In this document: positions 50,710-64,000 of the stretch, piece after piece
Numbering within the stretch: the stretch's first letter is position 1
Layout of the letters: the number at the start of each line of letters is the position of its first letter
NCBI RefSeq assembly: GCF_013122565.1
Contig: NZ_CP053258.1
Direction: 5' to 3' (one strand)
DNA length: 64,000 nucleotides
Source of the DNA: Escherichia coli
GTDB taxonomy: Bacteria; Pseudomonadota; Gammaproteobacteria; Enterobacterales; Enterobacteriaceae
Translations under genes and position numbers: made by a program
Notes under the pieces: model-generated
Database searches by the model: none
What the model saw: the letters and a program-made list of their open reading frames with translations, nothing else
Told to the model about the DNA's origin: nothing

Positions 50710-53244
50710 TTAATTACTACCAAACATATCCTTAATCCAACCGGCTACACCGTCGCTATCTTTCTGCTCTTGCTGGGCAGGTTGCTGTTGCGGCTGTTGC
50801 TGCGGCTGTGAAGACTGATCAAACGGATTGCCTGACGGCTGCTGCTGCATCTCACTCTGCTGGCACAGCGATTGCGGATCGCTGGTCCAGACCGGCAAGA
50901 CACGCATGCCACCGCTGCAAACAAAGTTGCCGTCGTAGTCCACGCCCATATCTGCAATATCTTCTGGCGGAACAAGATTCAGCGGTGTTGGCGTCTGGTT
51001 AGCCAGATAACGCTGATAAATCGACATTGCCCCGCTGGCACCATACAGTTTGGTCGGCTGGTTGTTATCACGGCCTACCCAGGTGATGGTCACCGTGCTG
51101 CCGTCAATGCCCGCAAACCAGGTATCTACGTTATTGTTGGTAGTCCCTGTTTTCCCTGCCAGATGCAGGTTCGGGTATTTCGCCCCAAGCTGACGACCCG
51201 TACCGCGTTGTACCACCTGCTGCATGGTCCATAGTGTCAGATACGCCGCCTGCGCCGGAACAGCGCGTTCCGCCTGCGGGAAGCTCTGATACAGCACTTT
51301 GCCATCTTCCGCAATTACCGAACGCAGCGCAGAAAGCGGTGCACGGTTACCGCCGCTGGCGATAGTCTGGAATGCCTGCGCCACTTCGATTGGCGTTAAG
51401 TTCAACGCCCCCAGCAGCATCGCCGGAACCGGATGCAGCTGATCTTTCGGTACGCCCAGTTTAATCCAGGTCTCCGTAACCGCAGGCAGCCCCAGCGCCA
51501 TCCCCAGATTTACCGTCGGCACGTTCATCGAACGGGTCAACGCATCCACCAGCATCACTCTGCCGCTTTCGCTATAACGACGGTCATCGTTCTGCGGTGA
51601 CCAGACCTGGCCATTCGGCTGACGTAGCGCGATTGGCGCATCCGCAATCCACGTATTCAGACGATAGATTTTCGGCTGGCTTAAGGCCGTCAGATAAGTC
51701 GCTGGTTTTGCAAGAGAACCAATCGAACGACGCGCCTGCATCGCACGGTTGTAGCCCGCAAACTGCGGCTCAGAACCACCGACCATCGCACGAACTTCAC
51801 CACTAAAGCGGTCGACGACCACAATCGCAGTTTCAAGATCGCTCAGCTTACGCTGTTTCTTCAGTGCCGGAATGCCTTCCACGGCGGCTTTTTCTGCCGC
51901 GTCCTGTGCCACCGAGTCAAAGGTAGTGAAGATCTTCACGCCGGAGAGATCTTTTACCTTATCGCCCAGTTTTGCCTGCAACTCCTGACGCACCAGCTGC
52001 ATAAAGGCTGGCTGAGGAGAGATCACCCCACCGCGCGGCTGAACACCCAGCGGACGTGCACTCAACATGTCATAGAGTTCTTGATCAATAATCTGTTGCT
52101 GTTGCAGCAGACGCAGCACCAGATTACGTCGCTCCAGCGCCAGTTTTGGGTTACGCCACGGGTTGTAGATGGACGCCCCTTTCACCATGCCGACTAACAG
52201 CGCCTGCTGGTCGAGGCTTAGCTCTTCTACCGGGCGACCAAAGTAATACAAGCTCGCCAGCGGGAAGCCGCGGATTTCGTTGTCGCCGCTCTGACCGAGA
52301 TACACCTCGTTCATATACAGCTCAAGAATACGGTCTTTGCTGTAACGCGCGTCCATGATCAGCGCCATGTAAGCTTCGTTCGCTTTACGCCAGTAAGAGC
52401 GCTCGCTGGAGAGGAACAGGTTTTTCACCAGCTGTTGCGTCAGCGTACTCGCCCCCTGCACCGTGCGACCTGCGGTCAGGTTTGCCAGCACCGCACGTCC
52501 GATGGAGTAGAGACTGATTCCATCATGCTCGTAAAAATGACGGTCTTCTGTCGCCAGCAAAGTATCCACCAGCAAATCAGGGAAACCACTGCGCGGCACA
52601 AACAGACGCTGCTCACCGTTTGGCGAGGAGATCATGGTGATCAGGCGCGGATCAAGACGGAAGAAGCCGAACTGACGGTTGTTCTCCATATTGACGATGG
52701 TCGCCAGATGATCGCCATCAAAGGTCAGACGCGCACGCACCTGCCCTTCTTTACTGTCCGGGAAATCAAACGGACGGCGGATCATCTCAATGCTGTTGGC
52801 CTGCACGGTAAATTCGCCAGGACGGGTCATTTTCGACACCTGACGATACTGGGTAGCCTCCAGCAGCTTCACCATCTCGTTCTTGCTGATGGTCATATCT
52901 GGCTCAAGGTTGACCATTCGGCCATAAACTGCCGCAGGCAGTTGCCAGACCTTGCCATCAATACGGCTACGAATTTTTTGATCGAGATAAACACCGTAAA
53001 TGGCGATCAGCACGGCAAAAACGATAGCCAGTTTTAGCAGTAGCCATAGCCAGCCGCGTTTGCCACGAGGCTTACGCCCTTTGCCTTTGCCCTTACCTTT
53101 GCGCGGCATCGGTTCTTCATCCTCATAGTCATCATAATCGTCGTAATCATCGTCATCTTCGTAACGACGACGGCTTACCTTTTGTTTGACCGGACGCGTC
53201 GGTTTCCCTTTGCGTCCAATTGGCTCGCGGTCATTCCCGGCCAT
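50710..53244 (-). CDS. mrcB: Penicillin-binding protein 1B (bifunctional transglycosylase/transpeptidase)
   Basis: 844 aa from [21 protein letters not shown], acidic and KGKG-rich cytoplasmic tail, GT and TP domains. Confidence 0.9.
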
Positions 53245-53337
53245 GCTTTTTCTCCGCAATATTCAGGCGCAAAAGCCCGATTTTCTGTTCTTCTGTTGCA
53301 AGACAGAAGAAGATATCTCTCAAATTTGCTTTGGTCT

Positions 53338-55767
53338 TCACGAATACTTTTTCGTCCGTCGCGTCGGTGCCGTGTTTGCCGGGTCATCCGGCCAGACGTG
53401 TTTGGGATAACGCCCTTTCATCTCCTTTTGCACCTCACGATACGCCCCTTTCCAGAAGGCCCCCAAATCACGCGTGATTTGCAGCGGCCTTTGGGCAGGG
53501 GAAAGCAACTCCAGCACCAGCGGCACGCGCCCCTGGGCGATCGTCGGATTGGTGGCCTCGCCAAACATCTCTTGCATTCTCACCGCCAGCGCGGGCGGGT
53601 TATCTTCATGATAACGAATGGCGATCCGGCTTCCCGTCGGCACAGTGTAATGCGCAGGCAATTCACTATCCAGACGTTGCTGCATTCCCCAATCAAGTAA
53701 TCCGCGTAGTGCCTGATAAATGTCGAGTGATTTCAGGCCGCGTAGTGAATGTACACCGGCCATATGTGGCAGCAGCCACGTTTCCAGCGTCGCCAATAAA
53801 CTTTCATCATCAACCGCTGGCCAGTCATATTCTGGCAACCACTTTGCGGCGCATAACAAACGCAAGCGTAGCTGTTCCGCTTCCGCCGTCCAGTTGAGCA
53901 CGCTTAAACCTTTATCACGAATGCCGTTAAGCATCGCCTGATGCAACTCGTCTTCTGACGGTTTCGCCAGTGGCTGCACTTTCACCGTCAACTGACCGAT
54001 TTGCAGCCGACGCCAGGCTTTCAGCGTACCTTGCGCGTCATCCCATTCCACGGTGTCAGATTGCTGCACCAGCTGCGGACAGCGTTGTACTAATTCATCA
54101 ATATCGACCGGTAGCGCCAGTAAAATCCGCGCATCCGGCGAGGCGCTGCCCTGCAATAATAACGGTGCGATCAACCATTCGTGGCGGCTTAGCGCGTCGT
54201 CGGCATCGAGCATCGCTCCCATGCCGTTTGCCAGTTGATAGCGTCCATCTTGCCCACGGCGACGAGCAATGCGATCGGCAAACGCCCCGGCAAGTAGCGG
54301 CGCGATAAGCGAACTGTCTGCCTCACCGCCGCGTACGTTTAAGTGTTTTAACAGTTGCTGACTACGTTGCTGCCAGGCTGGTTGATTGCGCGAAAACGCC
54401 ACGCCCAGGTCACTATTGCCCATCCGTGGCGGCTCTTCGAGAATGGCGGCAATTTTTGCCGCGGTAGCAGCTTCGTCGTCGCTCTTTGCGCTAACCAGCA
54501 TTGCCGCTAAACGCGGATCGTTACCCAGCGCTGCCATTTTTTGCCCTTGCGCACTAAGCCGTTCACCGTCCAGCGCCCCTAGCATCTTTAACAGGCGTTT
54601 CGCGGCCAGTAAATTCACTGCTGGCGGTTGATCCAGCCAGCTCATCTGCGCCGGATCGCTGCATCCCCATTGCAGTAATTCCATCAGCAAACCGGAAAGA
54701 TCGCTTTGTAAGATCTCCGGTTCACTTTGCGCGGCAGCGCGTTCTGCTTGTTCTTTGGCGATTAAATGTAGGCAGATACCCGGCTCCAGACGCCCGGCAC
54801 GCCCGGCACGCTGCGTCATCGACGCCTGACTGATTCGCTGAGTAATCAACCGCGTAAGCCCTGTTCGCGGATCAAAACGCGCCACCCTTTCCTGGGCACA
54901 ATCCACCACCAGACGAATACCTTCGATGGTTAAACTGGTTTCAGCAATATTGGTCGCCAGCACCACTTTGCGCATCCCTTGCGGTGCCGGGAGGATCGCT
55001 TTTCGCTGATCGTTTAGCGACAACGCGCCATACAGCGGGCAGAGCAACACATCACTGCCGATGCGCGAAGCCAGTTGTTCCTGCACACGCTGAATTTCTC
55101 CGACGCCAGGTAAAAATAACAGTAATGATCCACTTTCCTGACGCAGCATTTCGGCGGTGGCAACCGCGACGGCTTCGTCAAAACGCTGATGCGCGGGCAG
55201 CGGTAAATAACGGCGTTCAACCGGAAACGAGCGCCCTTCTGAGATGACGACGGGCGCTTCTGGCAGCATTTGCTGCAAGCGGTCGTTGTCCAGCGTAGCC
55301 GACATAATCAGCAGTTTAAGGTCATCACGCAGACCTTGTTGCACATCGAGTAACAACGCCAACGCCAAATCCGCCTGCAAGCTGCGCTCATGAAATTCAT
55401 CAAGGATCACCAATCCAACACCGCTCAGTTCCGGGTCACGCTGGATCATCCGCGTCAGCACGCCTTCGGTAACCACTTCCAGGCGGGTATTCGGCCCGAC
55501 GCAGTTTTGCGCACGCATCCGGTAGCCAACGGTATCGCCTGGCTTTTCGTTAAGCAGCTCCGCCAGCCGTTGCGCGACGTTACGCGCCGCCAGACGACGC
55601 GGCTCCAGCAGGATAATTTTCCCGTTAATGCCGGGATGCGCCAGCAGTTGCAGCGGCAGCCAGGTTGATTTCCCGGCCCCGGTCGGCGCACTTAATAACA
55701 CCTGCGGCGCACAATCGAGAGCGGTAAGTAATTCAGGTAAGACGGCAGCAACGGGCAACGACGACAC
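53338..55767 (-). CDS. hrpB: ATP-dependent RNA helicase HrpB (DEAH-box)
   Basis: 809 aa if started at in-frame GTG (V16 of track ORF); Walker A APTGAGKST, DEFHER motif. Confidence 0.85.
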   Translation of the reverse strand: MSSLPVAAVLPELLTALDCAPQVLLSAPTGAGKSTWLPLQLLAHPGINGKIILLEPRRLAARNVAQRLAELLNEKPGDTVGYRMRAQNCVGPNTRLEVVTEGVLTRMIQRDPELSGVGLVILDEFHERSLQADLALALLLDVQQGLRDDLKLLIMSATLDNDRLQQMLPEAPVVISEGRSFPVERRYLPLPAHQRFDEAVAVATAEMLRQESGSLLLFLPGVGEIQRVQEQLASRIGSDVLLCPLYGALSLNDQRKAILPAPQGMRKVVLATNIAETSLTIEGIRLVVDCAQERVARFDPRTGLTRLITQRISQASMTQRAGRAGRLEPGICLHLIAKEQAERAAAQSEPEILQSDLSGLLMELLQWGCSDPAQMSWLDQPPAVNLLAAKRLLKMLGALDGERLSAQGQKMAALGNDPRLAAMLVSAKSDDEAATAAKIAAILEEPPRMGNSDLGVAFSRNQPAWQQRSQQLLKHLNVRGGEADSSLIAPLLAGAFADRIARRRGQDGRYQLANGMGAMLDADDALSRHEWLIAPLLLQGSASPDARILLALPVDIDELVQRCPQLVQQSDTVEWDDAQGTLKAWRRLQIGQLTVKVQPLAKPSEDELHQAMLNGIRDKGLSVLNWTAEAEQLRLRLLCAAKWLPEYDWPAVDDESLLATLETWLLPHMAGVHSLRGLKSLDIYQALRGLLDWGMQQRLDSELPAHYTVPTGSRIAIRYHEDNPPALAVRMQEMFGEATNPTIAQGRVPLVLELLSPAQRPLQITRDLGAFWKGAYREVQKEMKGRYPKHVWPDDPANTAPTRRTKKYS

Positions 55768-55840
55768 AAAACGCTCCAGAGGGTTAACATTCTTCGCGCC
55801 ACATTGTAGCATCGCGGTAATTCATAACCGAGTGCCTCAC

Positions 55841-57090
<1,250 letters not shown>

Positions 57091-57267
57091 TAAAGTATGT
57101 AACTGGTTAATTTACATTCTGGTCGCGTGCGCAAATACGCTTTTCCTCACACAGTTGTCAAGTGTTACGTTTAGATAATTGCTATCCGGAAAAGCATCTG
57201 CTATTTATAGCGGCCTCATTTTTCCCCCGAACATGGGGATCGATAGTGCGTGTTAAGGAGAAGCAAC

Positions 57268-57723
57268 ATGCAAGAAGGGCAAAACCGTAAAACATCGTCC
57301 CTGAGTATTCTCGCCATCGCTGGGGTGGAGCCATATCAGGAGAAGCCGGGCGAAGAGTATATGAATGAAGCCCAGCTGGCGCACTTCCGTCGTATTCTGG
57401 AAGCATGGCGTAATCAACTCAGGGATGAAGTCGATCGCACCGTTACACATATGCAGGATGAAGCAGCCAACTTCCCGGACCCGGTAGACCGTGCAGCCCA
57501 GGAAGAAGAGTTCAGCCTCGAACTGCGTAACCGCGATCGCGAGCGTAAGCTGATCAAAAAGATCGAGAAGACGCTGAAAAAAGTGGAAGACGAAGATTTC
57601 GGCTACTGCGAATCCTGCGGTGTTGAAATTGGTATTCGCCGTCTGGAAGCGCGCCCGACAGCCGATCTGTGCATCGACTGCAAAACGCTGGCTGAAATTC
57701 GCGAAAAACAGATGGCTGGCTAA
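57268..57723 (+). CDS. dksA: RNA polymerase-binding transcription factor DksA
   Basis: 151 aa from [25 protein letters not shown]4 zinc finger ([25 protein letters not shown]), AAGGAG Shine-Dalgarno upstream. Confidence 0.95.
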
Positions 57724-57751
57724 TTACAGCCGTTCCATCACGTTTACCACA

Positions 57752-57779
57752 GGCGGGAAATGCTCCCGCCTTATTTTTT
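57752..57779 (+). terminator. Intrinsic terminator after dksA
   Basis: GGCGGGA-aatgc-TCCCGCC followed by TTATTTTTT, 29 nt after the dksA stop and just before the gluQ ATG. Confidence 0.75.
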
Positions 57780-57789
57780 GTTCAAAGAG

Positions 57790-58686
57790 ATGACAGACAC
57801 ACACTATATTGGCCGCTTCGCCCCCTCTCCTTCCGGCGAGCTTCATTTTGGTTCTCTGATTGCTGCGCTTGGCAGCTATTTGCAGGCTCGCGCCCGGCAA
57901 GGTCGCTGGCTGGTACGCATTGAAGATATCGACCCGCCTCGTGAAGTTCCCGGTGCCGCAGAAACTATCCTGCGCCAGCTGGAACATTACGGTCTGCACT
58001 GGGACGGCGATGTTCTCTGGCAATCGCAACGTCACCACGCCTATCGCGAAGCACTCGCCTGGTTACATAAACAAGGACTAAGTTATTACTGCACCTGCAC
58101 GCGTGCGCGTATTCAAAGCATTGGTGGTATTTACGACGGTCATTGCCGGGAATTGCATCATGGACCAGATAACGCCGCAGTGCGTATCCGCCAGCAGCAT
58201 CCGGTCACCCAGTTTACTGACCAGCTGCGCGGCATTATTCACGCCGAAGAAAAACTGGCGAGGGAAGATTTTATTATTCATCGCCGTGATGGTTTGTTTG
58301 CCTATAACCTGGCGGTGGTGGTGGATGATCACTTCCAGGGCGTGAGCGAAATTGTCCGCGGGGCAGATTTGATCGAACCGACAGTGCGGCAAATCTCGCT
58401 GTACCAGCTTTTTGGCTGGCAAGTGCCAGATTACATTCATCTGCCGCTGGCGCTTAATCCACAAGGCGCTAAACTTTCCAAGCAGAATCATGCGCCTGCG
58501 TTGCCGAAAGGCGATCCACGCCCGGTACTAATCGCGGCACTTCAATTTCTGGGGCAGCAGGCAGAAGCACACTGGCAGGATTTCAGCGTCGAGCAAATCC
58601 TTCAGTCAGCCGTCAAAAACTGGATGCTGACCGCCGTGCCTGAGTCGGCAATTGTAAATTCAACATTCTCAAATGCGTCATGCTGA
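57790..58686 (+). CDS. gluQ: Glutamyl-Q tRNA(Asp) synthetase (GluRS paralog YadB)
   Basis: 298 aa from [22 protein letters not shown]; track ORF starts 10 codons earlier at 57760, inside the dksA terminator hairpin. Confidence 0.8.
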
Positions 58687-58745
58687 GCTATGATTAGCCG
58701 CTATTTTTTTGTCCTGAATGATGTTTGACACTACCGAGGTGTACT

Positions 58746-60143
58746 ATTTTTACCCGAGTCGCTAATTTTTGCCGCAAGGTGCTAAGCCGCGAGGAAAGCG
58801 AGGCTGAACAGGCAGTCGCCCGTCCACAGGTGACGGTGATCCCGCGTGAGCAGCATGCTATTTCCCGCAAAGATATCAGTGAAAATGCCCTGAAGGTAAT
58901 GTACAGGCTCAATAAAGCGGGATACGAAGCCTGGCTGGTTGGCGGCGGCGTGCGCGACCTGTTACTTGGCAAAAAGCCGAAAGATTTTGACGTAACCACT
59001 AACGCCACGCCTGAGCAGGTGCGCAAACTGTTCCGTAACTGCCGCCTGGTGGGTCGCCGTTTCCGTCTGGCTCATGTGATGTTTGGCCCGGAGATTATCG
59101 AAGTTGCGACCTTTCGTGGACACCACGAAGGTAACGTCAGCGACCGCACGACCTCCCAACGTGGGCAAAACGGCATGTTGCTGCGCGATAACATCTTCGG
59201 CTCCATCGAAGAAGACGCCCAGCGCCGCGATTTCACTATCAACAGCCTGTATTACAGCGTAGCGGATTTTACCGTCCGTGATTACGTTGGCGGCATGAAG
59301 GATCTGAAGGACGGCGTTATCCGTCTGATTGGTAACCCGGAAACGCGCTACCGTGAAGATCCGGTACGTATGCTGCGCGCAGTACGTTTTGCCGCCAAAT
59401 TGGGTATGCGCATCAGCCCGGAAACCGCAGAACCGATCCCTCGCCTCGCTACCCTGCTGAACGATATCCCACCGGCACGCCTGTTTGAAGAATCGCTTAA
59501 ACTGCTACAAGCGGGCTACGGTTACGAAACCTATAAGCTGCTGTGTGAATATCATCTGTTCCAGCCGCTGTTCCCGACCATTACCCGCTACTTCACGGAA
59601 AATGGCGACAGCCCGATGGAGCGGATCATTGAACAGGTGCTGAAGAATACCGATACGCGTATCCATAACGATATGCGCGTGAACCCGGCGTTCCTGTTTG
59701 CCGCCATGTTCTGGTACCCACTGCTGGAGACGGCACAGAAGATCGCCCAGGAAAGCGGCCTGACCTATCACGACGCTTTCGCGCTGGCGATGAACGACGT
59801 GCTGGACGAGGCCTGCCGTTCACTGGCAATCCCGAAACGTCTGACGACGTTAACCCGCGATATCTGGCAGTTGCAGTTGCGTATGTCCCGACGTCAGGGT
59901 AAACGCGCATGGAAACTGCTGGAGCATCCTAAGTTCCGTGCGGCTTATGACCTGTTGGCCTTGCGAGCTGAAGTTGAACGTAACGCTGAATTGCAGCGTC
60001 TGGTGAAATGGTGGGGTGAGTTCCAGGTTTCCGCGCCACCAGACCAAAAAGGGATGCTCAACGAGCTGGATGAAGAGCCGTCACCGCGTCGCCGTACTCG
60101 TCGTCCACGCAAACGCGCACCGCGTCGTGAGGGTACCGCATGA
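58746..60143 (+). CDS. pcnB: Poly(A) polymerase I
   Basis: 465 aa if initiated at in-frame ATT ([22 protein letters not shown]...); first in-frame ATG is ~50 codons further in. Confidence 0.85.
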
Positions 60144-60619
60144 CATTGGCGTATATTGCCATAGGCAGCAATCTGGCCTCTCCGCTGGAGCAGGTCAATG
60201 CTGCCCTTAAAGCATTAGGCGATATCCCTGAAAGCCGCATTCTTGCCGTTTCTTCGTTTTACCGCACCCCACCGCTGGGGCCGCAAGATCAACCCGATTA
60301 CCTCAACGCCGCCGTGGCGCTTGAAACTTCGCTCGCCCCGGAAGAGTTACTCAACCATACACAGCGCATAGAACTGCAACAGGGTCGTGTTCGTAAAGCT
60401 GAACGCTGGGGACCACGCACGCTGGATCTCGACATCATGCTGTTTGGTAATGAAGTGATAAATACCGAACGCCTGACCGTTCCGCACTACGATATGAAGA
60501 ATCGTGGATTTATGCTATGGCCGCTGTTTGAGATTGCACCGGAGTTGGTGTTTCCTGATGGGGAGACGTTGGCGACAAGGCTCACCAATTTGAACGCCTT
60601 ATGCCCACAACGCTGGTGA
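60140..60619 (+). CDS. folK: 2-amino-4-hydroxy-6-hydroxymethyldihydropteridine pyrophosphokinase
   Basis: 159 aa [35 protein letters not shown]; 4-nt overlap with pcnB stop. Confidence 0.9.
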
Positions 60620-61023
60620 ACTTGCTATAGCAAAGAGTAAATTCATTCAGCGTTTTCTTTACGTTTTTTTAATATTAATTCTTTCTCAAATCTAAGCATA
60701 ATATTTAATAAAACGCATTTCATAGCTTTCGTGTTTTTGTCTGTGCGCTAACTATTCCGACAATAGATTAGTTAAAAAGCCTTCACCACCTTATTGATAC
60801 ATTAAAAGAATAACAGATGTAAAAATACAGACTTTTAAACGCCCAATTAATAAAAACATCATTCAAACAAATAATTAAAGATTATAAATACACACAATGA
60901 ATATTATTTATTTTCTCGCCCCCTTACATTCACCAGATCTATTTTTATTCCATTTGCATAAGCTTTATAATTTGCTGAGGTGACTCTTCTCACCTCTCTA
61001 TTATTTTTATAAGGACATTAAAT
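60620..61023 (+). promoter_or_regulatory. AT-rich regulatory region upstream of the fimbrial operon
   Basis: About 400 bp, visibly AT-rich with many A/T tracts (ttttttaatattaatt, aataattaaagattataaatac), between folK and the fimbrial subunit gene. Confidence 0.5.
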
Positions 61024-61596
61024 ATGTTAAAGAAAAGCGCTATTGCTGCGGCATTAGTTATGTTTACCAGTTCGGCCTTCGCGCTGGATGGCGGCCAGCT
61101 GGATTTCGCAGGTTTGGTGAGTGACAACACGTGTATCCTGCACGTCAACGGTGGTGCACAGGATGGACAAATTAATCTTGCAACCGCCACAACGGCTGAA
61201 GTTACAGGTGCTGGCGTAGTCAATGCAGCCAGTGTCGGCGCGAAACCTGAACCGTTCTCTATTACAGTGGATTGCTCAGCAAACACGCCTGCCGCCGCTG
61301 AAGCCAATCTGAATATGAGCTCAGTTTTCTTCAGTAACAGCCAGGGCACCCTGAATAACGATATGTCCGTAAGCCAGGCGGCAAGCGGCGTCGCTATTGC
61401 CGTTCACTATGTACCAAGCGCCGGCACTTTCGAGCAGGTCAAAATCAATGACAGCACCGATATTAAAAACCTCACGTTAACCAACGGTAAAGGGACCTGG
61501 AACTTCCAGGCATCTTACGTTAAGCAGGCAGCGTCGATTCCTGTCGTTGCCGGGTTTGTGAAAACCAACGCGGCTTATACGATCACTTACCCGTAA
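61024..61596 (+). CDS. yadN: Fimbrial major subunit (YadN-like, chaperone-usher family)
   Basis: 190 aa with signal peptide MLKKSAIAAALVMFTSSAFA, Cys pair, T/A/G-rich pilin-like composition; first gene after AT-rich region downstream of folK. Confidence 0.7.
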   Translation: MLKKSAIAAALVMFTSSAFALDGGQLDFAGLVSDNTCILHVNGGAQDGQINLATATTAEVTGAGVVNAASVGAKPEPFSITVDCSANTPAAAEANLNMSSVFFSNSQGTLNNDMSVSQAASGVAIAVHYVPSAGTFEQVKINDSTDIKNLTLTNGKGTWNFQASYVKQAASIPVVAGFVKTNAAYTITYP

Positions 61597-61658
61597 TTCA
61601 GATACAGACCAGGCAGTCGATGTCGGGCTGCCTGTATGACTTTAATAAGGACATCATT

Positions 61659-62402
61659 ATGACCAGGACGCGTCAGTTACTCCTTGCTTCACTTTTCACC
61701 TGCGCAGGTGCATTAGCCAGCTTTTCCGCCTGTGCCGATATTGTGCTTTCCGGCACGCGTATTATTTACAACGCAAGTCAGAAAGAAGTCTCCCTGCGTA
61801 TGGAAAACAAAGGCAGCCGCCCGCTGCTGGTACAAACGTGGATCGATACCGGGAGTGAAAACGCGGATCCCAGCACCATCACCGTGCCTTTTACCGTCAC
61901 GCCACCGGTCTCTCGTGTGGACGGTAAACGTGGGCAGACGGTGAAAATCGCCTGGAATACCAGCCAAACGTTGCCCGCCGATCGCGAAAGTGTTTTCTGG
62001 TTCAATGCGCTGGAAGTCCCCCCCAAAATGAGCGAGACCGAGGCTCAGGGGAAAAATATCCTGCAACTGGCGTTCCGCACCCGCATCAAGCTGTTTTATC
62101 GCCCGGCTAACCTGGTCGGCAGCGCCCCGGACGCCCCCAAACAACTGACCTGGCATCTGCAATCCTCTGGCGGGAAAGTTGTGCTTCAGGCCACTAACCC
62201 AACGCCATTCCACGTCTCTTTTAGCGGTATTAGCCTGATTTCGGGCGGAAAAAAATACGCCGTCGACGCCACGATGGTCTCCCCGAAAAGCAGCGCTGAC
62301 ATGACGGTGAAAGGTCTGAGCACAGCGCCCGCTGGCGCGACGATTGACTATATCGCCATTAACGACTTCGGCGGCGCCATTGAAGGCAAAGTGAAGCTTT
62401 GA
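61659..62402 (+). CDS. yadV: Periplasmic fimbrial chaperone (YadV/EcpD-like, PapD family)
   Basis: 247 aa from MTRTRQLLLASLF, conserved PapD-like blocks (GTRIIY, PLLVQTWID, FWFNALEVPP, LAFRTRIKLFYRP, AINDFGG). Confidence 0.8.
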   Translation: MTRTRQLLLASLFTCAGALASFSACADIVLSGTRIIYNASQKEVSLRMENKGSRPLLVQTWIDTGSENADPSTITVPFTVTPPVSRVDGKRGQTVKIAWNTSQTLPADRESVFWFNALEVPPKMSETEAQGKNILQLAFRTRIKLFYRPANLVGSAPDAPKQLTWHLQSSGGKVVLQATNPTPFHVSFSGISLISGGKKYAVDATMVSPKSSADMTVKGLSTAPAGATIDYIAINDFGGAIEGKVKL

Positions 62403-62432
62403 CGCGCTGAATAACCACGCAGGGATTGCACA

Positions 62433-64000
62433 ATGACGACGCCTTTCAACGGCACAAAATTTCCCCTCTCTCCACTCGCTTGTCTGGTGGCGTGCAGTCT
62501 GCTGCCCTGCGCGTACAGCGCCATGGCGGCAGAGGAAGCCGTTGAATTTGATAACACCTTCCTGATGGGGGCCGGTGCCAGGAATATCGACGTCAATCGC
62601 TACAGTGATGGCAACCCCGCGTTACCTGGTCGTCACGACGTTAGTGTGTTTATCAACAATAAGCCGACCAGCAATCTGTCCATCGAGTTTATTGAAATAG
62701 CGAATAGCCGTAGCGCCCAACCCTGTATTTCTGCCAGCACCCTGCTCCAGTTGCATATTCGCCTGCCGGATAATCTCGACGATACGGCGATTTTGCAGAA
62801 ACGGGACAGTACCGCGCAGGACTGTCTTAATCTTGAGGTCGCCATTCCCCAGTCCAGCCTCACCTATAACAGTAACGATCAGCGGCTGGACATTAATGTG
62901 CCTCAGCTGTGGTTGCAAAAAACTTACGCTAACTATGTGGATCCTTCCCTGTGGGACGAAGGGATCAACGCAGCCATGTTTTCTTACACGCTGAATGGCT
63001 GGCGCAGTGAGTCGCCCAATCAAACCGCAGAAAGTACCTATGCCGGGCTGATGGGCGGCTTTAATTTATGGGGATGGCACTTCCGGTCGCACGGCAACTA
63101 TTCATGGGACAAAGAGAGTGGCGGCAGTTTCGAGTTCCAGGACAAGTACCTGCAACGTGATATCGTCAAACTGCGGTCGCAGCTGGTTGTCGGTGAAACC
63201 AACACCACGGGGGAGACCTTTGATTCCGTTCGTATTCGCGGGGTTCGTCTCTACAGCGAAAGCCGCATGCTGCCACCGACGCTCGCCTCTTACGCGCCGG
63301 TGATCCGTGGGGTCGCAAACTCCAACGCCAAAGTAACGATTACCCAGAACGGCTACAAGATTTACGAAACGACGGTGCCGCCAGGCCCCTTTGCTATCGA
63401 TGACTTATCGCCAGCCGGATTTGGTGCCGATCTCGAAGTCACGGTCACCGAATCTGACGGCTCACAGCGAACATTCACCCAGGCCTATTCATCGGTGATC
63501 CAGATGATGCGCCCCGGCGTGGGCAAATGGGACATCAGCGCGGGTGAAGTCAAAAAGGATGAGCTAAAGGACAATCCCAACCTGATACAGGGAACGTACT
63601 ACTACGGGTTAAGCAATACGTTTACCGGCTATACCGGCCTGCAAATGACCGATAACGGCTACTGGGCCGGGTTGTTAGGGCTTGGGATGAACACCTCATT
63701 GGGGGCATTTTCCCTGGATGTGACGCAGTCGCACACCGAAATTCCCAACGATAAAACCTATGAGGGCCAGAGCTACCGTATTTCGTGGAACAAATATTTT
63801 GCACCGACCGAAACGTCACTCAACATTGCGGCCTATCGCTACTCGACAAAAAACTATCTCGGCCTGAACGATGCCTTAACGCTGATTAACTCCGCTAACC
63901 ATCCTTATGATGATGGCTACAAGGGAATCGTCTCCTATGGGCGTATGAAAAACCAGTTCAGCGTCAGCCTCAACCAGACGTTAAAAAATGGCGAGCGGGA
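62433..64000 (+). CDS. htrE: Fimbrial outer-membrane usher (HtrE-like); 3' end outside window
   Basis: Open frame from ATG 62433 to window end, signal peptide MTTPFNGTKFPLSPLACLVACSLLPCAYSAMA, usher motifs (RLYSESRMLPPTLASYAPVIRGVANSNAKVTITQNGYKIYETTVPPGPFAIDDL); not in track because no stop reached. Confidence 0.8.
   Translation, partial: MTTPFNGTKFPLSPLACLVACSLLPCAYSAMAAEEAVEFDNTFLMGAGARNIDVNRYSDGNPALPGRHDVSVFINNKPTSNLSIEFIEIANSRSAQPCISASTLLQLHIRLPDNLDDTAILQKRDSTAQDCLNLEVAIPQSSLTYNSNDQRLDINVPQLWLQKTYANYVDPSLWDEGINAAMFSYTLNGWRSESPNQTAESTYAGLMGGFNLWGWHFRSHGNYSWDKESGGSFEFQDKYLQRDIVKLRSQLVVGETNTTGETFDSVRIRGVRLYSESRMLPPTLASYAPVIRGVANSNAKVTITQNGYKIYETTVPPGPFAIDDLSPAGFGADLEVTVTESDGSQRTFTQAYSSVIQMMRPGVGKWDISAGEVKKDELKDNPNLIQGTYYYGLSNTFTGYTGLQMTDNGYWAGLLGLGMNTSLGAFSLDVTQSHTEIPNDKTYEGQSYRISWNKYFAPTETSLNIAAYRYSTKNYLGLNDALTLINSANHPYDDGYKGIVSYGRMKNQFSVSLNQTLKNGER

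What the first reader, a model, noticed from the sequence alone, without database searches (positions are those of the whole stretch)
60620..64000. Chaperone-usher fimbrial operon with AT-rich upstream region directly after folK
After folK come a ~400-bp AT-rich region and three co-directional genes: a 190-aa pilin-like subunit, a PapD-like chaperone and an usher that runs off the window. This is the position of the cryptic yadN-ecpD-htrE operon in E. coli. The AT-rich upstream block is the kind of sequence typically silenced by H-NS. The proteins look like divergent alleles rather than the K-12 versions as I remember them, but I cannot quantify this. This is the only clearly accessory, horizontally variable module in the window; tip adhesin genes would lie beyond the 3' edge.
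Basis: partly seen in the sequence, partly recalled or inferred. Interest (0 to 1): 0.45.

Follow-up and report, generated by a model that had tools for sequence, protein, structure and literature searches.

The report
Rare Yad-type fimbrial operon allele
This is the first part of an ordinary chaperone-usher fimbrial (adhesive hair) operon at the well-known E. coli "yad" site, but in a rare version that is almost identical to the operon of another genus, Pseudocitrobacter, so the whole adhesin cassette was probably swapped in by recombination.

Summary
After folK there is a 404-bp spacer with 27.7% G+C, the lowest value in the window. Three co-directional genes follow: a 190-aa pilin, a 247-aa PapD-like chaperone and an usher cut off by the window edge. 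The site is the folK-panB "yad" locus of E. coli.

An identical public contig supplies the rest of the operon: usher of 873 aa, three minor pilins, a 406-aa adhesin, then panB.

At least three deep allelic clades occupy this locus in E. coli. The window's type occurs in 8 of 5,426 complete genomes, at 96.4% identity.

Unexpectedly, the operon is about 95% identical in DNA (94-98% in protein) to that of Pseudocitrobacter corydidari. The flanking core genes are only about 76% identical. This indicates an inter-genus cassette replacement, with junctions near the folK 3' end and inside the panB 5' end.

This allelic clade shares a conserved TATAAT and an invariant palindrome, GGTGA-N6-TCACC, upstream of the pilin gene.

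H-NS silencing is plausible but untested. It is a known kind of system with an interesting history.

The parts
60140..60619 (+). folK (HPPK). The last ~16 codons (from ~60572) belong to the variable segment.
   Evidence: ORF. Identity to K-12 is 97-98% up to 60571 and then collapses. The FolK C-terminal tail differs with each fimbrial allele type.
60572..60963 (+). 'Orphan' left-junction segment: the folK tail plus most of the AT-rich spacer. It is shared only with E. coli genomes that carry the same allele.
   Evidence: Sensitive blastn matches only L010 (100%) and ET201 (94.5%). K-12 and P. corydidari do not match.
60620..61023 (+). AT-rich intergenic/regulatory region (27.7% G+C), a candidate H-NS-bound silencing region.
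   Evidence: H-NS motif density is not above the compositional expectation. There is a single GATC and no switch-like inverted repeats.
60966..60971 (+). Conserved -10-like hexamer TATAAT, 58 nt before the start codon. It is the putative promoter of the operon and has no good -35.
   Evidence: TTTATA(A/C)T is conserved in 7 clade-C upstream regions that otherwise diverge. The consensus scan did not flag it because the -35 is poor.
60979..60994 (+). Invariant palindrome GGTGA-N6-TCACC (7-bp stem 60977-60996 in this copy). It is a candidate operator overlapping the predicted transcript start, or a 5'-terminal RNA hairpin.
   Evidence: The arms are identical in 7 sequences while the loop and flanks vary. 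It folds at -13 kcal/mol with z = -2.5. Five of 7 pairs never vary, so covariation gives no support for an RNA stem. It is absent from the K-12-type and ATCC 8739-type alleles.
61011..61015 (+). Ribosome-binding site AAGGA for the pilin gene.
   Evidence: ATAAGGA is invariant in all clade-C upstream regions.
61024..61596 (+). Major pilin at the YadN position, 190 aa.
   Evidence: Pfam Fimbrial. Signal peptide, Cys37-Cys84 pair and C-terminal ...YTITYP. Identity is 51% to K-12 YadN, 98% to ET201 and 96% to the second pilin gene of P. corydidari.
61610..61634 (+). Intercistronic stem-loop (9-bp stem) between the pilin and chaperone genes. It could be a partial terminator or an mRNA stabiliser.
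   Evidence: -16.5 kcal/mol centroid, but z = -0.97, so it does not stand out against shuffles. The function is inferred only.
61659..62402 (+). Periplasmic PapD-like chaperone at the YadV/EcpD position, 247 aa.
   Evidence: PapD_N and PapD_C. Passes the NCBIfam equivalog NF007398 (354 bits, cut-off 285). The best solved structure is YadV, 5GHU, at 4e-82. Arg8 and the conserved Lys are present. Identity to K-12 YadV is 55%.
62433..64000 (+). Outer-membrane usher at the HtrE position. The first 522 of 873 codons are in the window; the gene is cut by the window edge.
   Evidence: PapC_N and Usher. The full-length copy in L010 has PapC_C and passes NCBIfam NF007337 (1356 bits, cut-off 830). Identity is 62% to K-12 HtrE over the first 522 aa. 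It matches FimD and PapC structures.

Best explanation
The region is the promoter-proximal half of a Yad/Sta-family chaperone-usher fimbrial operon at the conserved folK-panB locus of E. coli.

Mechanism, inferred from family membership: the pilins are exported by Sec. The PapD-like chaperone folds and caps them by donor-strand complementation. The usher polymerises them by donor-strand exchange, in the order tip adhesin (406 aa), three adaptor/minor pilins, then a rod of the 190-aa major pilin.

The allele belongs to a deep lineage ("clade C") that differs by 40-60% in protein sequence from the K-12 yad genes. In this E. coli lineage the cassette is almost identical to that of Pseudocitrobacter corydidari. 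It most likely arrived by homologous replacement from a Pseudocitrobacter-like donor. The right junction lies in the first ~200 bp of panB. The left junction lies at the folK 3' end and spacer.

Transcription probably starts at a conserved TATAAT 58 nt upstream of the pilin gene. It is probably silenced by H-NS on the 72% A+T spacer. A clade-specific palindrome, GGTGA-N6-TCACC, at the transcript start probably adds a further control.
For: Shown:
- Domain content and motifs of all seven genes.
- Synteny with the yad locus in K-12 and seven other E. coli genomes.
- Chaperone and usher pass the NCBIfam equivalog models that cover YadV and HtrE. The best PDB hit for the chaperone is YadV.
- Three allelic clades at the locus, with 43-64% aa identity between clades.
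- The allele is present at 96.4% identity in 8 of 5,426 complete E. coli genomes, at 75.8% in 13 more, and at <=67% in the rest.
- The operon (chaperone to minor pilin 3) is 95.2% nt identical to P. corydidari. ET201 is 97.7% identical to P. corydidari. The adjacent core genes hrpB-pcnB are only 76% identical. Per-gene aa identity is 94-98%, against 87-90% for folK and pcnB.
- Sliding identity puts the start of P. corydidari-like sequence at ~60964-60985. K-12-like sequence returns ~200 bp into panB.
- The promoter-proximal motifs are conserved in 7 clade-C sequences.

From the literature:
- Yad corresponds to Salmonella Sta at an identical locus and is core-associated (PMC3559732).
- yad is repressed by H-NS (PMC13245861).

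Inferred: the assembly mechanism, the promoter, H-NS silencing and the direction of transfer.
Against: - No expression or assembly data exist for this allele.
- The spacer has no H-NS motif excess beyond composition.
- The consensus promoter scan found no more sites than chance and did not pick the TATAAT.
- Direction of transfer is not proven. The operon's GC3 (52-65%) fits E. coli core genes at least as well as Pseudocitrobacter core genes (65-67%).
- Sampled Pseudocitrobacter copies carry an extra upstream pilin gene and a different spacer, so the immediate donor is unsampled.
- ET201 is closer to P. corydidari (97.7%) than to the window (95.4%). More than one exchange, or an exchange in the opposite direction, is therefore needed.
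Confidence: 0.85

Rival explanations
1. It is simply the known K-12-type yadN-yadV-htrE operon with ordinary strain-level variation.
For: Same locus, same gene order and same domain content.
Against: Identity to K-12 is only 51/55/62% aa and about 66% nt, and only in patches. The flanking genes are 97-100% identical. The upstream region shows no detectable similarity.
Confidence: 0.02
2. The allele is an ancient polymorphism inherited vertically within Escherichia (trans-species balanced lineages). Its resemblance to Pseudocitrobacter reflects shared ancestry, or E. coli was the donor rather than the recipient.
For: - Deep clades coexist at the locus in E. coli. E. albertii and a second E. coli type also belong to clade C.
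- Wurpel et al. regard Yad/Sta as ancestral.
- The operon's GC3 resembles E. coli core genes.
- The left-junction spacer is unique to E. coli copies.
Against: - Vertical descent cannot give 95-98% operon identity when the adjacent core genes are 76% identical.
- In E. coli the type is rare, 8 of 5,426 complete genomes.
- It is present in P. corydidari, in a second lineage whose flanking genes are 95% identical to P. corydidari (L014/L015), and in proteins labelled 'unclassified Pseudocitrobacter'.
- The E. coli copies nest inside that diversity. L014 is the outgroup at 92%.
Confidence: 0.2
3. The operon is a decaying, non-functional relic (a cryptic pseudo-operon).
For: Yad fimbriae are poorly expressed in laboratory conditions (PMC3559732, PMC13245861). 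One E. coli copy of this allele carries an IS1.
Against: All seven reading frames are intact, with signal peptides and conserved assembly motifs. The proteins are 94-98% conserved between two genera, with most nucleotide change silent (95% nt against 98% aa for the usher).
Confidence: 0.08
4. The junction of E. coli core DNA with Pseudocitrobacter-like DNA is an assembly or contamination artefact.
For: None beyond the abrupt change in relatedness.
Against: - The same arrangement is found in 8 independently finished E. coli chromosomes.
- An independent Logan assembly is 100% identical to the window.
- The exact proteins are on a 4.82-Mb E. coli GenBank contig.
Confidence: 0.01

Closest known systems
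Yad fimbriae of E. coli K-12/UPEC (yadN-yadV(ecpD)-htrE-yadMLKC)
   Same: Identical chromosomal site (folK-panB). Same seven-gene order and orientation. AT-rich upstream spacer of similar size and G+C (26.6% against 27.7%). The chaperone and usher pass the same NCBIfam equivalog models. The chaperone's best solved relative is YadV.
   Different: Protein identity is only 34-62%: pilin 51%, chaperone 55%, usher 60-62%, minor pilins 34-42%, adhesin 38%. The upstream region is unrelated in sequence and carries a clade-specific TATAAT and palindrome. The FolK C-terminal tail also differs.
yad-like operon of Pseudocitrobacter corydidari (CP087880.1) and related Pseudocitrobacter
   Same: Same locus. 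Gene lengths are identical (873, 190, 198, 190, 406 aa). Identity is 94-98% aa and ~95% nt. The same palindrome lies upstream of the matching pilin gene.
   Different: Pseudocitrobacter has an additional tandem pilin gene (191 aa) upstream, and a different folK tail and spacer. The host core genome is ~24% diverged.
Sta fimbriae of Salmonella (staA-G)
   Same: Reported as the Salmonella counterpart of Yad at the identical locus (PMC3559732). The best NCBIfam models for the pilin and the first minor pilin are StaA and StaD. Salmonella pilins are 53-59% identical.
   Different: All the Sta models score below their curated cut-offs (for example StaA 147 bits against a cut-off of 230), so the genes are not Sta orthologues in the strict sense.
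Type 1 fimbriae (FimA/FimC/FimD), the structural paradigm
   Same: The usher aligns end to end with the FimD structures (3.5e-117) and the chaperone with FimC (about 1e-28). The domain set is the same.
   Different: There is no fimB/fimE recombinase and no invertible promoter element. The locus, the adhesin and the number of minor subunits all differ.

Membership tests
Chaperone-usher fimbrial operon | Outer-membrane usher with an N-terminal domain, a pore domain and a C-terminal domain | tested here: met
   PapC_N at 2e-40 and Usher at 5e-103 in the window fragment. PapC_C is present in the full-length copy on the identical contig L010. It aligns with FimD over residues 23-851.
Chaperone-usher fimbrial operon | Periplasmic two-domain PapD-like chaperone with the conserved cleft Arg and Lys | tested here: met
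   PapD_N at 1e-43 and PapD_C at 1e-18. Mature Arg8 is present, and so is the Lys in RTRIKLFYRP.
Chaperone-usher fimbrial operon | Secreted pilin subunits with a signal peptide, a disulfide pair and a C-terminal beta-strand with penultimate Tyr | tested here: met
   Pfam Fimbrial. Cys37/Cys84...YTITYP and a hydrophobic N-terminus ending AFA. No dedicated signal-peptide predictor was available.
Chaperone-usher fimbrial operon | Assembly of surface fimbriae | not testable with these tools
   Needs expression and microscopy.
Yad fimbriae as defined by Wurpel et al. 2013 (locus position plus usher phylogeny) | Operon located between folK and panB | tested here: met
   The window is collinear with K-12 up to folK. 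The identical contig continues to panB.
Yad fimbriae as defined by Wurpel et al. 2013 (locus position plus usher phylogeny) | Usher groups with HtrE/StaC rather than with other usher types | tested here: met
   The usher scores 1356 bits on NCBIfam NF007337 (cut-off 830). The next model scores 562 bits and falls below its own cut-off. No explicit tree was built.
Yad fimbriae by the operational criterion of PMC13245861 (usher >=80% identity and length to HtrE of EC958) | >=80% aa identity to reference HtrE | tested here: not met
   60-61% identity to the HtrE proteins of K-12 and of the phylogroup-B2-type strain NU14. EC958 itself was not fetched. This allele would be scored 'Yad-negative' in that survey.
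Yad fimbriae (regulation) | Transcription silenced by H-NS | not testable with these tools
   Only the A+T content (72.3%) can be shown. H-NS motif density equals the compositional expectation.
fim-type invertible-promoter phase switch | Short inverted repeats flanking a ~300-bp promoter element, plus adjacent tyrosine recombinase genes | tested here: not met
   There is no recombinase ORF between folK and the pilin gene. The only long-range inverted repeat is 71% complementary over 24 nt.
pap-type Dam/Lrp methylation switch | Two GATC sites about 100 bp apart upstream, plus papI/papB-like regulator genes | tested here: not met
   There is a single GATC in the spacer, at 60936, and no small regulator ORFs.
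Salmonella Sta fimbriae | Proteins reach the curated NCBIfam Sta equivalog cut-offs | tested here: not met
   StaA 147 bits (cut-off 230), StaD 86 (cut-off 228), StaE 145 (cut-off 213).

The most novel reading that the evidence does not exclude
The folK-panB fimbrial locus may behave like an antigen/adhesin "cassette" site, comparable to O-antigen or flagellin loci. Ancient allelic lineages would be kept and exchanged across genera (Escherichia, Pseudocitrobacter, E. albertii) by homologous recombination in the flanking essential genes. Each cassette would bring its own regulatory module: in clade C, the invariant GGTGA-N6-TCACC operator-like palindrome at the transcript start. A swap would then change adhesin specificity, surface antigen and regulation all at once.
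Probability: 0.35. Interest if true: 0.5.

Novelty: new member of a known kind. Interest (0 to 1): 0.3.

Why it matters
Yad fimbriae have recently been tied to bloodstream and urinary virulence. Their prevalence is being estimated with identity thresholds anchored on K-12 or UPEC sequences. Alleles like this one, at 50-62% protein identity, are invisible to such thresholds, so "Yad-negative" strains may in fact carry a different Yad cassette with another adhesin and another promoter region.

The near-identity to a Pseudocitrobacter operon shows that a locus regarded as core-associated is open to replacement from another genus. The junctions lie inside or next to essential genes. This is relevant to adhesin typing, to vaccine and antigen choice, and to how recombination crosses large sequence divergence.

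The system itself is a standard chaperone-usher fimbria.

Tried and rejected
- H-NS consensus-motif density: not above the compositional expectation. The H-NS idea therefore rests on A+T content and the literature only.
- Consensus sigma-70 and terminator scan of 60400-62500: no more promoter-like sites than in shuffles. The terminator-like hit at 60977-60996 is the conserved palindrome, but the T-run after it is not conserved in other clade-C loci.
- Rfam at gathering threshold and at E<=1 over 60500-61700: nothing.
- RNA-hairpin reading of the palindrome: five of 7 pairs are invariant, one pair has a compensatory change and one sequence breaks a pair. This does not differ from shuffles. The stem is real in this sequence (z = -2.5), but conservation is of sequence rather than of pairing, which leans towards a protein-binding site. 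The core GTGA-N6-TCAC resembles a CRP site, yet only ~11 of 22 positions match the CRP consensus by my own count, and the site sits at the predicted transcript start. I do not claim a CRP site.
- Invertible element and Dam switch: rejected.
- PDB sequence search for the pilin and the adhesin: no hits.
- Scan of species-representative genomes with the pilin: it found only P. faecalis (75%). The exact-peptide method missed P. corydidari, which was found through the protein database instead.
- GC3 as an indicator of donor: not decisive.
- Literature search for Pseudocitrobacter fimbriae and for yad recombination: nothing relevant in the held library.
Full report
**1. What is in the sequence.**

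The end of the window reads gluQ (57760-58686), pcnB and folK (60140-60619), all on the + strand.

Next comes a 404-bp spacer, 60620-61023, with 27.7% G+C. The window mean is 52.5%. No 404-bp stretch of the 64-kb window is lower.

Three co-directional reading frames follow.
- 61024-61596 (190 aa) hits Pfam Fimbrial at 1.3e-10.
- 61659-62402 (247 aa) hits PapD_N at 1e-43 and PapD_C at 1e-18.
- 62433 to the window edge (522 aa) hits PapC_N at 2e-40 and Usher at 5e-103.

All three begin with a basic and then hydrophobic signal-like segment ending in a small-x-small motif. The pilin has the usual Cys pair (37/84) and a penultimate Tyr. The mature chaperone starts DIVLSGTR, which gives Arg8, and keeps the Lys of RTRIKLFYRP.

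I prefer 61659 to 61620 as the chaperone start. It has an AAGGA ribosome-binding site, it gives a normal signal peptide, and it is the start annotated in the homologous RefSeq loci.

**2. Where it sits.**

The window is collinear with E. coli K-12 from 218,997 down to 157,301 at 96.6-99.3% identity. The only gene-content difference is the absence of yaeI.

Homology to K-12 stops at window 60571, about 16 codons before the end of folK.

In K-12 the next genes are yadN-yadV-htrE-yadMLKC, followed by panB. All eight E. coli genomes I fetched have a 6-7-gene chaperone-usher operon in exactly this place.

Wurpel et al. define fimbrial types by locus position plus usher phylogeny. They list Yad as core-associated and as the counterpart of Salmonella Sta at the identical locus (PMC3559732).

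**3. How divergent it is.**

Against K-12, the pilin is 51% identical, the chaperone 55% and the usher fragment 62%. The flanking PcnB, PanB and PanC are 99-100% identical.

The chaperone and the full-length usher still pass the curated NCBIfam equivalog models NF007398 (354 bits, cut-off 285) and NF007337 (1356 bits, cut-off 830). The pilins and the adhesin fall below every cut-off. Their best models are Sta, YadL or the YadC-like "fimbrial-like adhesin" models. The chaperone's closest solved structure is YadV, 5GHU, at 4e-82.

A pairwise matrix over nine loci shows three deep clades at this one locus.
- Clade A: K-12, NU14, MEI003, ECCNB12-2.
- Clade B: 27_141091, ATCC 8739.
- Clade C: the window, ET201, MFDS1022581.

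Identity is 72-98% within clades and 43-64% between them.

The last ~17 residues of FolK change with the clade, so the variable block begins inside folK.

**4. How common it is.**

Megablast of 60620-64000 against 5,426 complete E. coli genomes finds 8 genomes at 96.4% and 13 at 75.8%. It finds nothing else. The sensitive search shows the remaining ~5,200 genomes at <=67%, in patches.

No complete genome carries the window's exact variant. The exact proteins are nevertheless in GenBank as E. coli QJU25496, QJU25498 and QJU25502, on a 4.82-Mb contig. One pilin variant of the same 90% cluster is seen on 620 contigs.

A recent survey scored strains as Yad-positive only at >=80% identity to HtrE of EC958, and reported 70% prevalence and no Yad in phylogroup E (PMC13245861). 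At 60-61% identity to the K-12 and NU14 HtrE proteins, this allele would be counted as absent.

**5. The rest of the operon.**

An exact-sequence look-up of the pilin found one contig, a Logan assembly of SRR11451224, held here as L010. It is 100% identical to window 51024-64000.

It supplies the 873-aa usher with its PapC_C domain, three minor pilins (190, 198 and 190 aa), a 406-aa adhesin, and then panB and panC.

**6. The unexpected part.**

The protein search showed that the nearest non-E. coli pilin belongs to Pseudocitrobacter corydidari.

Its locus, L013, lies between the same flanking genes. Apart from one extra pilin gene (below), its gene lengths are identical to the window's operon.

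Per-gene identity to the window's operon is as follows.

| Gene | aa identity to P. corydidari |
|---|---|
| Pilin (vs second pilin gene) | 96% |
| Chaperone | 98% |
| Usher | 98% |
| Minor pilin 1 | 94% |
| Minor pilin 2 | 97% |
| Minor pilin 3 | 94% |
| Adhesin | 94% |
| PcnB (flank) | 90% |
| FolK (flank) | 87% |
| PanC (flank) | 90% |

In DNA, the chaperone-to-minor-pilin-3 block is 95.2% identical. ET201 against P. corydidari is 97.7%. The adjacent hrpB-pcnB block is only 76% identical. Vertical descent cannot produce that contrast, so the cassette has moved between genera.

Sliding-window identity gives the boundaries.
- P. corydidari-like sequence begins at about 60964-60985.
- It persists to roughly 200 bp inside panB.
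- After that point identity to K-12 returns to 97-100%.

The stretch 60572-60963 (the folK tail and most of the spacer) matches neither K-12 nor any Pseudocitrobacter locus. It is shared only with ET201-type E. coli.

Pseudocitrobacter copies also have an extra pilin gene upstream. The immediate donor is therefore unsampled.

On direction, I favour Pseudocitrobacter-like donor to E. coli, at about 0.65. The reasons are these.
- The type is rare in E. coli.
- It is present in P. corydidari and in a second lineage, L014/L015, whose flanking genes are 95% identical to P. corydidari.
- L014/L015 is the outgroup to the E. coli and P. corydidari alleles, at 92%.

GC3 does not discriminate. ET201 is closer to P. 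corydidari than to the window. The adhesin lectin domain is also mosaic: for residues 121-180 the window matches P. corydidari at 58 of 60 positions but ET201 at only 41 of 60. More than one exchange has therefore occurred.

P. faecalis (72% nt), E. albertii (76%) and the E. coli MFDS type (75%) are further, roughly equidistant members of clade C. The clade is old and is distributed across genera.

**7. Regulation.**

The spacer is as A+T-rich as the K-12 yadN upstream region (27.7% against 26.6% G+C).

H-NS represses yad in K-12, CFT073 and EC958 (PMC13245861). H-NS silencing here is a fair inference. However, the sequences are unrelated, and H-NS motif matches are exactly what composition predicts (10 observed, 10.3 expected).

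Aligning seven clade-C upstream regions shows that only the last ~110 bp are conserved, as discrete blocks:
- ATTC(A/G)(C/A)C;
- TATTTTT;
- TTTATA(A/C)T (TATAAT at 60966-60971);
- an invariant palindrome GGTGA-N6-TCACC (60979-60994);
- ATAAGGA.

With a -10 at 60966-60971 the transcript would start at the palindrome.

As RNA the palindrome forms a 7-bp hairpin (-13 kcal/mol, z = -2.5). Five of its 7 pairs never vary, although the loop and flanks do, and the covariation measures do not exceed shuffles. Conservation of sequence rather than of pairing points to a protein-binding operator.

This motif set is absent from clades A and B. A cassette swap therefore also swaps the control region.

There is no sign of a fim-type invertible element or of a pap-type GATC pair. 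No Rfam family matches.

**8. Verdict.**

The thing itself is a standard chaperone-usher fimbrial operon of the Yad/Sta family. Its proteins are already in public databases under generic names.

What is new is descriptive.
- This is a rare, deeply divergent allele of the yad locus.
- It is shared almost unchanged with Pseudocitrobacter.
- Its recombination junctions lie at or inside essential flanking genes.
- It has a clade-specific promoter-proximal palindrome.

I rate it a new member of a known kind, of moderate to low interest.

Noticed in passing
window 33600-33727: yaeI (phosphodiesterase, 813 bp in K-12) is absent. Here 128 bp replace K-12 184245-185088, so dapD lies next to yaeH. The top-matching complete E. 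coli genomes show the same dapD-yaeH arrangement.
   Followed up: partly
window 28841-28927 (-) and 37084-37129 (-): Rfam gathering-level hits to t44 (tff) RNA upstream of rpsB and to the HtrA (degP) 5'-UTR thermometer. Both lie where K-12 synteny predicts.
   Followed up: no
window 28082-33599 and 60270-60370: The map-glnD-dapD segment is only 96.6% identical to K-12, against 98-99% for neighbouring segments. The interior of folK dips to 80-91% against K-12 and 84-86% against ET201. These are signs of a mosaic, recombined backbone.
   Followed up: partly
window 36000-60500: No complete RefSeq E. coli genome is closer than 98.3% over these 24.5 kb. Short pieces reach 99.6%, and the exact fimbrial proteins are recorded on a 4.82-Mb E. 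coli GenBank contig. The source strain seems to belong to a poorly sampled or highly mosaic lineage.
   Followed up: partly
window 60572-60619 (folK 3' end): The last ~16 codons of the essential gene folK co-vary with the fimbrial allele type. Nine loci give eight different C-terminal tails, all ending in W or WY. The hypervariable block therefore starts inside folK.
   Followed up: yes
window 60581-60604 and 60956-60979: An imperfect 24-nt inverted repeat (71% complementary) brackets the 'orphan' spacer segment that matches neither K-12 nor Pseudocitrobacter. It is probably chance in A+T-rich DNA.
   Followed up: no
window 61610-61634: A 9-bp stem-loop lies between the pilin and chaperone genes, where other fimbrial operons have a partial terminator or stabiliser. 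Its energy does not stand out against shuffles (z = -0.97).
   Followed up: partly
L013 10001-11350; L014 10001-11349; L015 7846-9195: Pseudocitrobacter copies of the operon carry two tandem major-pilin genes (191 and 190 aa; about 92% nt identical except for the first ~60 nt). E. coli copies have only the second. The conserved palindrome precedes the second gene, not the first.
   Followed up: partly
L010 15815-17035 vs L002 15219-16439: The adhesin is the most variable gene within this allele type: 87% aa between the window's strain and ET201. The differences concentrate in residues ~60-240, the presumed lectin domain, where the window's strain is closer to P. corydidari than to ET201.
   Followed up: partly
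L007 (E. coli MEI003), L002-type copy in strain VE-T9: The MEI003-type yad locus has six genes, one minor pilin fewer. The VE-T9 copy of the window's allele is interrupted by an IS1.
   Followed up: no
L003 (E. coli MFDS1022581): In this strain the core genes next to the locus are only 94% identical to the window and to ET201. Its operon is closest to that of E. albertii (80% nt). The flank may itself be imported.
   Followed up: no
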